Origin: Octopus vulgaris
Taxonomy: Eukaryota
Length of the DNA: 64,000 nucleotides
Direction of reading: 5' to 3'
NCBI GenBank assembly: GCA_951406725.2
Contig: OX597821.1
Coordinates: 86,180,001-86,244,000, forward strand
Shown here: positions 8,601-56,200 of the stretch, one piece after another
How the letters are laid out: each line of letters starts with the position of its first letter
Position numbering within the stretch: position 1 is the stretch's first letter
The notes under the pieces: generated by a model
Database searches by the model: none
What the model saw: only the letters and a program-made list of their open reading frames with translations
What the model was told of the DNA's origin: nothing
Made by a program: the position numbers and the translations under genes

Positions 8601-11600
8601 AAATGAAATTAGCCCCTGAAATATCACTATTCTTAAAATTGTTTTATGAGCCAGATGAAAATATTAAAGATATTAATTAGGTCAATTAATGATAAGGAGA
8701 GAAAACAAGTATTTCATTCAAAACATCTTTACTTTAGTTCTATATTTAAGAGATGATGAATTATGTACATTATTTACACTATTTACATTTGATGGATATT
8801 TGTTCTCATCTTGTTTGTTGTTAACACAACGTCTCGGTTGATATACCTTCCAGCCTTCTTCAGGTGTCTTGAGGAAATTTCGAACTACTACGCCATATGC
8901 CCACGGGAATATGGTGTAGTGGTTAAGAGCGTGGGCTACTAACCCCAAAATTCCGAGTTCGATTCCAAGCAGTGACCTGAACACTAACAACAACAACAAC
9001 AATCATAATAATAATAATAGCGTCGAAAAATACCTTAGGAAAGAGAACCCAGGTTCGAAATTTCCCCAAGACACCTGAAGAAGGCTGGAGGGTATATCAG
9101 CCGAAACGCTGTGTTCACAACAAACAAGATGAGGACAAATATCCGTCGAATGTAAATAATATAAATAATATAAATAATGTATCTTCACTTCAGGTTTTGA
9201 AAAGTCCAGCTGTTTCAGTTTTAATATAACATCAGTTACTTGAATGCTACCTTCAAGGTTCAATTGACACTTGTATTTTATTTTCTAATTAGTCAATGTA
9301 GAAAACTATTATCAGACAGGTAGGTTGTTGCAAAGGGCAGTATTTTTGTTTCTTCTACATGAACTGGTTTGAAATCAATTGCTGCTTTTGGCATTCAAAA
9401 GATGAAAAAAAAAACCTGCCGTATTCCGTAATTCTATGAGTGCTTCACTGTTGAAGTAAATTCTAAAGATTTGTAATACTTTAGTCATTATAAGATGACG
9501 AGCAATTTTACAGTTAAAGATCTACAATAAAGCGGATAGTCTTTATTGTAGATCTGAAAAGCAATCATTCAAAATTTGACAAAATAACTTATGACTGTTT
9601 CTTTTATATCATCATCAGTTGTAAAATATTGTCACCAACACTAATATTTTCACAATTTTCTAAAAGCGACTAGTTTGGAAAGGTGGCTCCTATAGTGTTA
9701 ATCAACTCTCTTGTACCAGTACAGAAACTCGTAAAAAATTCTATTAGCTTTTGAAAGCTGGCAATCTAGTTTTGATTCACTCTTTGGTTCCAGTACAGAA
9801 ACTGATTCAAATGCTAAAATCTTTTATTTTGCTAAAATTGATTTCGATAAGTTTCCTATGTAACATGGCTTATGACAACAACTAAATGCGAGGGGCCAGT
9901 GAAAATGAATTACTGAACTTATCTGCAAACCTTTCTGGTATTTTGAGCCCCCAGAAACGTTTGGGTTCTCAGTTGTTAGAGTCTAAGCTCTATTGAGATC
10001 GTCTCCCCGTGAAGGCCATTTCACTTCTGTGTAAAATAGGAGGCCGAAATATTTAGCTTCTCCATCCTTACATGCATGACAAAACAGCTGCATCTTTGGA
10101 GTATATCCTTCGACAGCATCCACGTTTGCAAAACGTTTTTCTTTAAGGACTGTTTTCATTCTGAGAACAAAAAGTTGCAGGGAGAAAGTTTTGTTCCTAT
10201 GTCAACGAAAATTAAGAAAGCTTTCAAATAAAAAGCTGTAAATTGGTAAATGTAGTATAACATCTTTATGTAACCACTCAATACAAATTTTTTTTTAAAA
10301 AGTGTCAGTGAGTGGCTGTGTGGTAAGTAGCTTGCTAACCAACCACATGGCTCCGGGTTCAGTCCCACTGCGTGGCATCTTGGGCAAGTGCCTTCTGCTA
10401 TAGCCCCGGGCCGACCAATGCCTTGTGAGTGGATTTGGTAGACGGAAACTGAAAGAAGCCTGTCGTATATATGTATATATATATATATGTGTGTGTGTAT
10501 GTGTGTGTGTTTGTGTGTTTGTCCCCCTAGCATTGCTTGACAACCGATGATGGTGTGTTTACGTCCCCGTCACTTAGCGGTTCGGCAAAAGAGACCGATA
10601 GAATAAGTACAGGGCTTACAAAGAATAGGTCCCGGGGTCGATTTGCTCGACTAAAGGCGGTGCTCCAGCATGGCCGCAGTCAAATGACTGAAACAAGTAA
10701 AAGAAAGAAAAGAAAGAAAGTGAAACCACCATAACTTAGTTTTAAGTTTAAATACACGTAATTGTAAAACTGAGCAAAGTGTCCAGTCACTTATGCGGTG
10801 TACAATAGGGTGGAGTGAAAATAATAAAAAAATCGTAAAAATTGAAAATGTCTGAGAACTAAAATATTGCTATATTTAATTACTAGAAAAATGTTAAAAT
10901 AGAATAGAGGGAGTGGGTAAACGGAGTCATGCAATTTTTGGTTAAAAAAATTATACTGCCCCACACTTAAGGCGGTGTGCGAAGGTGCTGGAAGCACTCC
11001 GTCGGTTACGATGACGAGGGTTCCTGTTGATCCGAATCAACGGAACAGCCTGCTCGTGAAATTAACGTGTAAGTGGCTGAGCACTCCACAGACACGTGTA
11101 CCCTTAACGTAGTTTTCGGGGATATTCAGCGTGACACAGAGAGTGACATGGCCGGCCCTTTGAAATACTGGTACAACAGAAACAGCAAGTAAGAGTGAGA
11201 GAAAGTTGTGGTGAAAGAGTACAGCAGGGATCACCACCATCCCTGCCGGAGCCTCGTGGAGCTTTTAGGTGTTTTCGCTCAATAAACACTCAGAACGCCC
11301 GGTCTGGGAATCGAAACCGCGATCCTATGACCGCGAGTCCGCTGCCCTAACCACTGGGCCATTGCGCCTCCTGTGCGAAGGTGCATTGTCGTAATGAAAC
11401 CACTACTCTCCACTTTGCCACTGGTCGGGGAATTTACTCCTCGCCGTGTCTTGCAAACGCTTCAGAACTGCCAAGTAAAATGCCTGGTTAACTGTTTGAC
11501 AATTCCTTTCGCATCGATGAAACAAATCAGCATCGTCTTAATGGACTTCACTTGATGTACTTTTTGGGTACGTGTTGACATTGAATATTTCCATTGACCT

Positions 11601-14600
11601 GATTGCTGCTTCGTTTCCGGGTCTTAGCTGTAGCAGCAGCTTCAATCACCAGTAATGAGCTTCAAAAAAAAAAAGTTCAGATCAACTATCAACTGTTCTT
11701 TCAGTTCTTTACACGCATTCAGTCATGGCTGCATTTGATCTTCCGTGAACAAGTGAGGCACAAATTTTGCTGCAACTCTTTTCATTCGCAATTCCTCGCT
11801 CAAAATTCGTTGGCAGGCGCTGCAGGACACATTAGTCATATCAATAAGTTCGTCAATTGTTCAGTGACAATCCTCCAAGATCAGTTCATGAAGGTGATGT
11901 TTTCATTTGTTCGGGAGTTCGACGGTCGCCCTGAACGAGGTTGGTCTTCAAGCGATAAGTGACCATTCCTAAAGCGTGAAAACCACTCGTAAACTTGTGT
12001 TTTGCTCATGGCAGCGTCTCTGTAAGCTGTTTAAAGCATGACAACTGTTTCGGCCGCCCGTTTTGCCCAGAAGGAAACAGAATTTCACGGAAGCGCGCTG
12101 TCCCTTCGTTTCAGCCGTAGCAAAAATCGATGAACAGGGGAGAAGCACTGCAAAACAAAAACATACCACATAGCAGTAGGATTTCACTCGATGACACCAG
12201 TTGAGAGACTGATGCCTAAGGGTCGCATCAAGTGGCTTCTAGCGGTGGAAGCATGAACTGCAACCGGATTTTCCCACAGAGAACGTTTTCAGTTACTTTT
12301 GGATACCCTCTCGTATATAAATACATTATTTCTTATTTTTACTTCTTTTTGGGTTTCAAAACACACTTACTCATTTAAACGTATAATGGGGGTGGGGGAA
12401 AGCATGAGTTATAGTTATAAATCAAATCAGAATGCGTACATAGAAATTTAGTACAAAATATATTTTTATGAGAGAAATTTATTTCAAATTATTTATGGAC
12501 AAACGAAATCTATACATAAATATTTATTTCAATACTTGGTTTTAAATGCTATCAGAGCAGGTGAAGTTTTTCCTCAAAAATGCTGAGCCAAATACAATAA
12601 ATAATTTTGTCTGCCATTTTAGATAAGTCGAGGATATTTACTTTATAATTTTCACGTGTTTCACTGAGTGAATTGCAGCCATTCTGGGACACCACTTTAG
12701 CGGGTATAGTCGGACAAACTAACCCCAGTACTTTTAAAGTCTGCTACTTTTCCTATCGTTCTTCTTTGCCGAGCCGCTAAATTGCGGGGACATAATCAAA
12801 CCCAAATTTTGTTGTCAAGAAGTAAGGGTGAAGGACAAACGCAAACACAGCTGGGGTATTCTAGATGAAATTTGTCTAAGGTGTCATTTAATGGGATTGA
12901 ACCCAAAACTATGTGGTTACAAAGCGAACTTCTTAACTACACTGCTATGTCTGCGCCTGTGTATTGGATGGAAGCACTCCGTCGGTTACGACGACGAGGG
13001 TTCCGGTTTATCCGAATCAACGGAACAGCCTGCTCGGGAAATTAACGTGTAAGTGGCTGAGCACTCCACAGACACGTGTACCCTTAACGTAGTTCTCGGG
13101 GATATTCAGCGTGACACAGAGAGTGACAAGGCCGGCCTTTTGAAATACTGGTACAACAGAAACAGCAAGTAAGAGTGAGAGAAAGTTGTGGTGAAAGAGT
13201 ACATCAGGGATCACCACCATCCCTGCCGGAGCCTCGTGGAGCTTTTAGGTGTTTTCGCTCAATAAACACTCAGAACGCCCGGTCTGGGAATCGAAACCGC
13301 GATCCTATGACCGCGAGTCCGCTGCCCTAACCACTGGGCCATTGCGCCTCCTGTGCGAAGGTACATTGTCGTAATGAAACCACTACTCTCCACTTTGCCA
13401 CTGGTCGGGGAATTTACTCCTCGCCGTGTCTTGCAAACGCTTCAGAACTGCCAAGTAAAATGCCTGGTTAACTGTTTGACAATTCCTTTCGCATCGATGA
13501 AACAAATCAGCATCGTCTTAATGGACTTCACTTGATGTACTTTTTGGGTACGTGTTGACATTGAATATTTCCATTGACCTGATTGCTGCTTCGTTTCCGG
13601 GTCTTAGCTGTAGCAGCAGCTTCAATCACCAGTAATGAGCTTCAAAAAAAAAAAAGTTCAGATCAACTATCAACTGTTCTTTCAGTTCTTTACACGCATT
13701 CAGTCATGGCTGCATTTGATCTTCCGTAAACAAGTGAGGCACAAATTTTGCTGCAACTCTTTTCATTCGCAATTCCTCGCTCAAAATTCGTTGGCAGGCG
13801 CTGCAGGACACATTAGTCATATCAATAAGTTCGTCAATTGTTCAGTGACAATCCTCCAAGATCAGTTCATGAAGGTGATGTTTTCATTTGTTCGGGAGTT
13901 CGACGGTCGCCCTGAACGAGGTTGGTCTTCAAGCGATAAGTGACCATTCCTAAAGCGTGAAAACCACTCGTAAACTTGTGTTTTGCTCATGGCAGCGTCT
14001 CTGTAAGCTGTTTAAAGCATGACAACTGTTTCGGCCGCCCGTTTTGCCCAGAAGGAAACAGAATTTCACGGAAGCGCGCTGTCCATTCGTTTCAGCCGTA
14101 GCAAAAATCGATGAACAGGGGAGAAGCACTGCAAAACAAAAACATACCACATAGCAGTAGGATTTCACTCGATGACACCAGTTGAGAGACTGATGCCTAA
14201 GGGTCGCATCAAGTGGCTTCTAGCGGTGGAAGCATGAACTGCAACCGGATTTTCCCACAGAGAACGTTTTCAGTTACTTTTGGATACCCTCTCGTATATA
14301 AATACATTATTTCTTATTTTTACTTCTTTTTTTGGGTTTCAAAACACACTTACTCATTTAAACGTATAATGGGGGTGGGGGAAAGCTGAGTTATAGTTAT
14401 AAATCAAATCAGAATGCGTACATAGAAATTTAGTACAAAATATATTTTTATGAGAGAAATTTATTTCAAATTATTTATGGACAAACGAAATCTATACATA
14501 AATATTTATTTCAATACTTGGTTTTAAATGCTATCAGAGCAGGTGAAGTTTTTCCTCAAAAATGCTGAGCCAAATACAATAAATAATTTTGTCTGCCATT

Positions 14601-56104: not shown

Positions 56105-56200
56105 CTTAGGTTTATCTACTTCAATACTATCCGAGTTACCTATGTTCTGGTCAATGTTTCTATTTGAATTGTTGGGCCTGTACGCTAGACTAGCGTAAAT

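What the first reader, a model, noticed from the sequence alone, without database searches (positions are those of the whole stretch)
8885..56197. Shared micro-hairpin at the inversion junction of three unrelated HHR fold-back elements
Seen: the point where orientation flips carries a tiny hairpin in each case. These are 8885-8922 (18 bp imperfect stem, 2 nt loop), 47106-47141 (TATAGGTAAATAAGGAGA T TCTCACTTATACCTATA, imperfect; junction position inferred) and 56181-56197 (TACGCTAG A CTAGCGTA, perfect). In the first and third, the sequence beyond the hairpin jumps to an internal position of the same element (~130 and ~340 nt skipped). Inference: a common integration intermediate in which the cDNA 3' end snaps back, self-primes a few bases, then template-jumps and copies itself. 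This would explain Penelope-type inverted termini.
Basis: partly seen in the sequence, partly recalled or inferred. Interest (0 to 1): 0.75.

Follow-up and report, generated by a model that had tools for sequence, protein, structure and literature searches.

The report
Head-to-head Penelope insertions, two-ended priming
The three DNA hairpins are mostly built-in sequence of three Penelope-type jumping-gene families rather than a shared mark of insertion, and the back-to-back copies were likely made by starting two copies from the two cut ends of the target DNA and joining them in the middle, with fold-back only as an occasional repair step.

Summary
All three hairpins exist, but they are not a shared junction mark. 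Site 2 lies inside its element, 1.1 kb from the real junction (48253/4). Site 3 is family sequence for 16 of 17 bases. Only site 1 holds new inverted bases (13), added to a 5-bp stem that is family sequence. The three elements are head-to-head insertions of three unrelated hammerhead-bearing Penelope-like families. In 94 of 94 complete two-armed insertions one outer end is plain and the other carries the 'tail'; the tail is on the shorter arm in 15 of 45 asymmetric family-3 cases and in window elements 1 and 2, so that arm cannot be a copy of the longer arm's cDNA. Arms share subfamily alleles (7 of 704 differences). Best reading: both nicked target strands prime cDNAs at two fixed sites of one RNA; the two cDNA ends are then joined by microhomology end joining, sometimes after snap-back. 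Junction palindromes and self-priming were proposed in 2013, two start sites shown in vitro in 2024, and this scan already noted two-ended priming in this and other genomes. Rival: fold-back plus central deletion.

The parts
8725..8734 (+). Family 1 insertion: left copy of 10-bp target-site duplication
   Evidence: one mismatch to 9181-9190
8736..8884 (-). Family 1 short arm, carries the ~32-nt tail at 8736-8767
8885..8897 (-). New inverted copy of the long arm's first bases (snap-back synthesis, inferred); joins the short arm at a 4-nt microhomology with one mismatch (8883-8886)
   Evidence: absent from read-through copies
8898..8909 (+). Built-in 5-bp hairpin core of family 1 (family sequence)
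   Evidence: 28 of 30 long copies
8898..9180 (+). Family 1 long arm, plain end; tRNA-like A box 8912-8922 and B box 8955-8966 (motifs recalled; ARAGORN none), AAC/AAT tract, hammerhead core 9075-9106; it is the 3' repeat of an old RT + GIY-YIG element
9181..9190 (+). Right copy of target-site duplication
46741..48253 (-). Family 2 long arm, plain end, microsatellite-rich, no coding frame of note; hammerhead core 46802-46780
47106..47141 (.). Internal imperfect hairpin of family 2 consensus; not a junction
48254..48563 (+). Family 2 short arm with hammerhead core 48433-48455 and 69-nt tail 48495-48563; flanked by (TA)n
53090..56196 (-). Family 3 long arm: 121-nt tail 53090-53210, terminal repeat with hammerhead core 53329-53259, Asn-rich linker and GIY-YIG-type C-terminus of the ORF (54875-56209 frame)
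56181..56197 (.). Hairpin at junction 3: 56181-56196 family sequence, 56197 first base of the short arm; blunt join without microhomology
56197..58843 (+). Family 3 short arm, plain end, hammerhead core 58723-58793; flanked by (TA)n

Best explanation
These are head-to-head insertions of Penelope-like retroelements whose two arms were likely each reverse-transcribed from a separate nick in the target, one from the plain start site and one from the tail start site of the same RNA, and then likely joined at their 3' ends by microhomology end joining; the three hairpins are mostly built-in family sequence. Shown: one plain and one tailed end per insertion, tail on either arm, shared subfamily alleles, microhomology and templated fillers at the joints. 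Inferred: one protein-RNA complex primes both strands; the trailing polymerase displaces or meets the leading cDNA; a free cDNA end sometimes folds back and is extended before joining, above all where the template ends in a built-in stem (family 1, where a tRNA-type promoter would start the RNA inside that stem). The joining enzyme (host polymerase theta-type repair or the element's own RT) is untested.
For: One plain plus one tailed end in 63 of 63 resolved family-3 insertions (66 junctions examined, 3 with an unresolved end), 12 of 12 family-2 (read), 19 of 19 family-1 (of 30 loci). Tail on the short arm in 15 of 45 asymmetric family-3 cases, 5 of 13 family-1, and window elements 1 and 2. 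Single-armed family-3 copies end at the plain site (10) or the tail site (7), so each is a start site alone. Arms differ at 7 of 704 polymorphic-site comparisons against about 26% between insertions. Microhomology of 3 nt or more in 10 of 22 direct joins against 7% expected; 8 of 19 fillers locally templated, 5 direct and 3 inverted. Short arm is 520 nt or less in 15 of 31 insertions with a long arm over 1.5 kb. Symmetric junctions have spacers of 0-2 nt in 7 of 19 and are not enriched for natural self-priming stems (4 of 18 against 15%). In vitro a Penelope-like protein cuts and extends both strands and starts at two sites that bound the tail (PMC11167929).
Against: 17 of 38 unbiased family-3 insertions are near-symmetric (2.3 expected from independent arm lengths), so the arms are not independently truncated; this needs co-termination on one RNA or true fold-back. 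Tail is on the long arm twice as often (30 to 15, p 0.04). L175 has a 42-nt fold-back and no second start site. Asymmetric junctions hold somewhat longer stems than simulated joins (8 bp or more in 4 of 41 against 0.3; two of the four are explained by family sequence or repeat symmetry). Shared alleles fit self-copying equally well. Site 1 alone is also explained by a full palindrome with a later 130-nt deletion.
Confidence: 0.7

Rival explanations
1. One cDNA primed at the tail site folds back and is copied into a full palindrome, the element's endonuclease defines the plain end, and one-sided central deletion then makes the asymmetry and leaves small hairpins.
For: High share of symmetric insertions (17 of 38); fold-back without second arm in L175; one tail per insertion and shared alleles are expected; endonuclease resolution of the tail was suggested in PMC8557442.
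Against: Plain-ended single copies exist (10 of 17); asymmetric insertions are no older than symmetric ones (27 differences in 17636 sites against 12 in 5226); perfect palindromes up to 6.4 kb persist (L127); residual arms are mostly very short; zero-spacer centres at self-complementary words (L139, L132, L163) fit annealing of two ends better than a hairpin loop.
Confidence: 0.2
2. One reading: the cDNA end snaps back, adds a few bases, jumps along itself and copies itself to make the whole second arm.
For: Real snap-back plus skip at site 1 and in L065, L072 (12-19 bases beyond the built-in stem), L117 and probably L159; cDNA snap-back before 5' joining is described for R2 (PMC11371274).
Against: Sites 2 and 3 are family sequence; in L051 (the window) and L072 the arm reached after the jump carries the tail that the folded arm lacks; 15 of 45 such cases in family 3.
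Confidence: 0.05
3. Two separate protein-RNA complexes, or self-priming on an antisense RNA template (PMC3846280), make the two arms.
For: Palindromes at inverted junctions were read this way in PMC3846280; inverted copies could yield antisense RNA.
Against: Independent complexes would often give two plain or two tailed ends (0 of 94) and mixed subfamily alleles (7 of 704); every insertion has its own junction.
Confidence: 0.05

Closest known systems
Complex insertions of endonuclease-bearing Penelope-like elements (PMC3846280 passages; PMC8557442 passages and Introduction)
   Same: Inverted 5'-truncated copy next to the 5' end, one-sided tail, palindromes at the inverted junction, Asn-rich insert in the ORF, TA-rich targets.
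   Different: Those papers read the palindromes as self-priming on an antisense template and the tail as endonuclease resolution; here the tail rule and its side are counted, and tails are 32, 69 and 113-121 nt.
Poseidon_Ac in vitro (PMC11167929, parts 1-2 of 4 read)
   Same: Two adjacent RT start sites bounding the tail; both target strands cut and extended; predicted dimer.
   Different: The text read does not address how inverted arms form or are joined.
R2 snap-back 5' junctions (PMC11371274, passages)
   Same: cDNA 3' end primes synthesis on itself before joining, especially after full-length synthesis.
   Different: R2 joins the snap-back to target DNA; here it is joined to a second arm with its own start site.
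SD-MMEJ / polymerase theta-type end joining (PMC5728401, abstract and Introduction)
   Same: Microhomology, blunt joins, direct (loop-out) and inverted (snap-back) templated inserts from nearby sequence.
   Different: Described for broken chromosome ends; the enzyme acting here is not identified.
L1 twin priming (recalled; seen only as a reference entry)
   Same: Both target strands prime cDNA; ends joined with microhomology.
   Different: L1 arms do not overlap and the second primer lands anywhere; here both arms duplicate the 3' end and start at two fixed sites.

Membership tests
Endonuclease-bearing Penelope-like element | Single ORF with RT and C-terminal GIY-YIG endonuclease | tested here: met
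   [quoted passage not shown] No Pfam or PDB hit; 241 homologues, one with a sub-threshold RVT_1 match. Family 1: broken frames with YVDD and GIY-YIG motifs.
Endonuclease-bearing Penelope-like element | Pseudo-LTR partial tandems and inverted 5'-truncated copy | tested here: met
   L031, L033, L039, L044, L113 tandems; 66 head-to-head junctions
Endonuclease-bearing Penelope-like element | One-sided tail extension | tested here: met
   94 of 94 complete two-armed insertions
Endonuclease-bearing Penelope-like element | Hammerhead ribozyme in the terminal repeat | tested here: inconclusive
   Core motifs present in all three; no Rfam hammerhead hit; MFE folds not beyond shuffles; cleavage not testable
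Neptune/Nematis clades (family 3) | Extra Zn-finger-like motif before the endonuclease | tested here: inconclusive
   Cys-rich motif upstream of the endonuclease fits the description; no tree built
Penelope/Poseidon clade (family 1) | [quoted passage not shown] | tested here: met
   C-x-C between the two motifs in L223, L229, L235 frames; clade not confirmed by tree
Non-autonomous PLE-dependent element (family 2) | No coding capacity, shares termini with an autonomous partner | tested here: inconclusive
   Only microsatellite frames in L127-L130 (output partly cut); tail and (TA)n targets present; partner not searched
L1-type twin priming | Non-overlapping inverted arms from one RNA | tested here: not met
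   Arms always overlap at the 3' end
SD-MMEJ / polymerase theta joining | Microhomology and locally templated inserts at the joint | tested here: met
SD-MMEJ / polymerase theta joining | Genetic dependence on polymerase theta | not testable with these tools
   needs cells

The most novel reading that the evidence does not exclude
A Penelope-type complex copies one RNA molecule twice, from both nicked target strands at two fixed start sites, and the two cDNAs are joined head to head; in family 1 an internal tRNA-type promoter starts the RNA inside a built-in hairpin, so each cDNA ends in a ready-made self-primer and fold-back becomes a hard-wired hot spot.
Probability: 0.5. Interest if true: 0.6.

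Novelty: new member of a known kind. Interest (0 to 1): 0.36.

Why it matters
How Penelope-like elements make their inverted ends is stated to be open (PMC8557442). Hundreds of young copies give a countable footprint: the one-plain-one-tail rule and tail-on-short-arm cases separate two-ended priming from self-copying and can be tested in the existing in vitro system. The specific claim of a shared micro-hairpin intermediate does not hold, and the scan has reached the two-ended reading before, which limits what this finding adds.

Tried and rejected
Rfam: only microsatellite noise, no hammerhead. ARAGORN: no tRNA. Pfam and PDB: nothing for the family-3 ORF. My early reading that three bases at site 3 were new came from using L033, which has another allele, as reference; dropped; the null has the same flaw for the window row. 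First family-1 tail call over-aligned and was replaced; family 1 as an independent tRNA SINE was rejected. Target-site duplications cannot be read for families 2 and 3 because all sit in (TA)n. Rows dropped: L032 as duplicate of L031; L031, L042, L136, L143, L148 and fillers over 45 nt from the stem test (41 left); window and L143 from the filler test. No contig of four public runs bridged the window's own junction 3: no evidence either way; no RNA holder on record was listed. Assembly artefact rejected: asymmetric arms, one-sided tail, 13 differences between the family-3 arms and a duplication at element 1. Paper searches for 'Penelope' with 'twin priming' (3 listed, none read, titles on other topics), recent integration papers and tRNA-derived hammerhead SINEs found no statement of the two-ended model; supplements of PMC11167929 and PMC8557442 were not opened and may bear on it.

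Full report
Observation. The three stretches are as written. Self-BLAST shows three inverted pairs, 8748-8885 with 9053-9190 (88%), 46741-46984 with 48254-48494 (99%) and 53210-55853 with 56197-58843 (99.5%), with no similarity between them. Each carries a hammerhead core motif, not confirmed by Rfam. The window lies in a 2.8-Gb genome held as G000, from which I took copies of each family.

Site 2 is not a junction. The left arm aligns collinearly with other insertions from 46741 to 48253. The hairpin at 47106 is found in 12 of 12 arms of seven other insertions that reach that far, on both arms of a 6.4-kb palindrome. The true junction is 48253/48254, in microsatellite. The short right arm carries a 69-nt tail that the long arm lacks.

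Site 3 is at the junction but is inherited. Family 3 is a 4713-nt unit with a 981-aa frame (RT, Asn-rich linker, GIY-YIG-type end). Of 22 arms that read through this place, 3 carry the window's letters, including the two arms of L031 that are among the closest to the window; the others differ at one base. Contigs of three public runs also run to 56196 and on into family sequence. So 16 of 17 bases are family sequence and the join is blunt. Stems that end at arm ends are not enriched (5 bp or more in 2 of 90, 1.5 expected; 7 bp or more in 1 of 90, the window itself, 0.14 expected).

Site 1 is the real case. Family 1 is the 3' repeat of an old element with RT and GIY-YIG frames; its tRNA-like head is preceded by a 5-bp stem with a 2-nt loop in 28 of 30 long copies. 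In 30 copies taken in genome order, 6 read through, 13 break with no stem, 6 extend the stem by 2-3 bases and 5 by 10 or more. In the window 13 new inverted bases precede a 4-nt microhomology with the short arm, and that arm has the tail while the long arm ends plain against a 10-bp target duplication. Among 13 asymmetric two-armed copies, 3 have 12-19 new stem bases, and in 2 of those 3 the tail is on the short arm (counted from its rows).

The end rule. In family 3, 63 of 66 head-to-head junctions had both outer ends resolved and all 63 had one plain and one tailed end; family 2 gave 12 of 12 and family 1 19 of 19. Single-armed family-3 copies end at either site (10 plain, 7 tailed). Of 45 asymmetric family-3 insertions the tail is on the long arm in 30 and the short arm in 15. 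A short arm cannot have been copied from a cDNA that lacks its tail. Arms of one insertion differ at 7 of 704 polymorphic-site comparisons against about 26% between insertions, so they come from one template or source.

The joints. Of 45 asymmetric joints 22 are direct, 6 have 1-2 and 17 have 3 or more extra bases. Microhomology of 3 nt or more occurs in 10 of 22 direct joins against 7% expected. Of 19 fillers tested 8 are locally templated at p below 0.05, 5 as direct and 3 as inverted repeats. Perfect stems of 8 bp or more occur at 4 of 41 asymmetric joints against 0.3 expected, but one is the window's inherited stem and one is symmetric through the terminal repeat. This spectrum matches SD-MMEJ as described in PMC5728401; the enzyme is not identified.

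Against my reading. In the unbiased family-3 set 17 of 38 insertions are near-symmetric, far above 2.3 from shuffled arm lengths, and L175 folds back for 42 nt without a second start site. Either both polymerases often stop at the same place of one RNA, or a folded end is extended until it meets the partner. Spacers of 0-2 nt in 7 of 19 and no excess of natural stems (4 of 18 against 15%) lean to joining of two co-terminal ends, but do not prove it. Fold-back followed by one-sided deletion stays open; asymmetric insertions are not older (0.15% against 0.23% arm divergence), which argues against late deletion only.

Known work. Palindromes at inverted Penelope junctions, read as self-priming on an antisense template, are in PMC3846280 (passages). 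The inverted copy and one-sided tail are the standard layout (PMC8557442, passages and Introduction). Cutting and extension of both strands and two start sites bounding the tail were shown in vitro (PMC11167929, parts 1-2 of 4). cDNA snap-back is a described R2 junction class (PMC11371274, passages). Passages of 10.64898/2026.07.22.740005 and PMC13282606 added nothing on junctions. Searches listed no paper stating two-ended priming for these inversions. Earlier notes of this scan reached that reading in this and other genomes and described family 1's promoter-bearing repeat; they are not counted as evidence.

Verdict. The shared micro-hairpin is largely inherited sequence and one misplaced junction. 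What is there is the known Penelope head-to-head layout, with counts that favour two-ended priming of one RNA and end joining, and one family with a real fold-back hot spot. Interest 0.36.

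Noticed in passing
window 8898-8966; L196, L206, L208, L211, L221-L250: Family 1's terminal repeat begins with tRNA-like A and B boxes right after the stop of a GIY-YIG frame; 24 of 30 copies taken in genome order break within about 20 nt before the head, as a polymerase III start would give. The pattern search counted 2130 matches.
   Followed up: partly
L058 (tail of the main arm): The tail carries the reverse complement of the 16-nt target duplication in place of family letters, suggesting copying or conversion between arms across the target boundary.
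   Followed up: no
L152 junction: Nested fold-backs: both arms end at the same unit position, each with the same 9-nt snap-back, around a 12-nt filler.
   Followed up: partly
Family 3 unit 4569-4578 and 1974-1982: Junction hot spots shared by several insertions (L041, L043, L044, L138, L141, L161, L162; L037, L117, L158); long copies L033, L039, L113 start at 4414-4418, a possible transcript start.
   Followed up: no
L127 (1383-7799): A 6.4-kb near-perfect palindrome of the microsatellite-rich family 2 persists in the genome; family 2 is very young (40 top hits 100% identical).
   Followed up: partly
window 17372-18147: Tail-to-tail pair of another abundant tRNA-like repeat (copies also at 672, 1291, 2652, 10310, 19850, 49878).
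   Followed up: no
window 37106-37228, 62731-62821, 30658-30693: Further small fold-backs, the first two next to TA or GA microsatellites; 62731-62821 has a zero-spacer centre.
   Followed up: no
window 52539-52902: 364-nt palindrome of a fragment that reads like a LINE coding piece, with a GA/TC microsatellite centre.
   Followed up: no
window 8017-8444: Inverted 124-nt arms (86%) around a 180-nt core, MITE-like.
   Followed up: no
window 33902-35443 and 43624-45155: Two decayed copies (75% alike) of an endonuclease-RT coding LINE, RTE-like by recalled motifs.
   Followed up: no
window 10989-15324: Tandem of an about 1980-nt unit, 95% identical, containing a frequent interspersed repeat.
   Followed up: no
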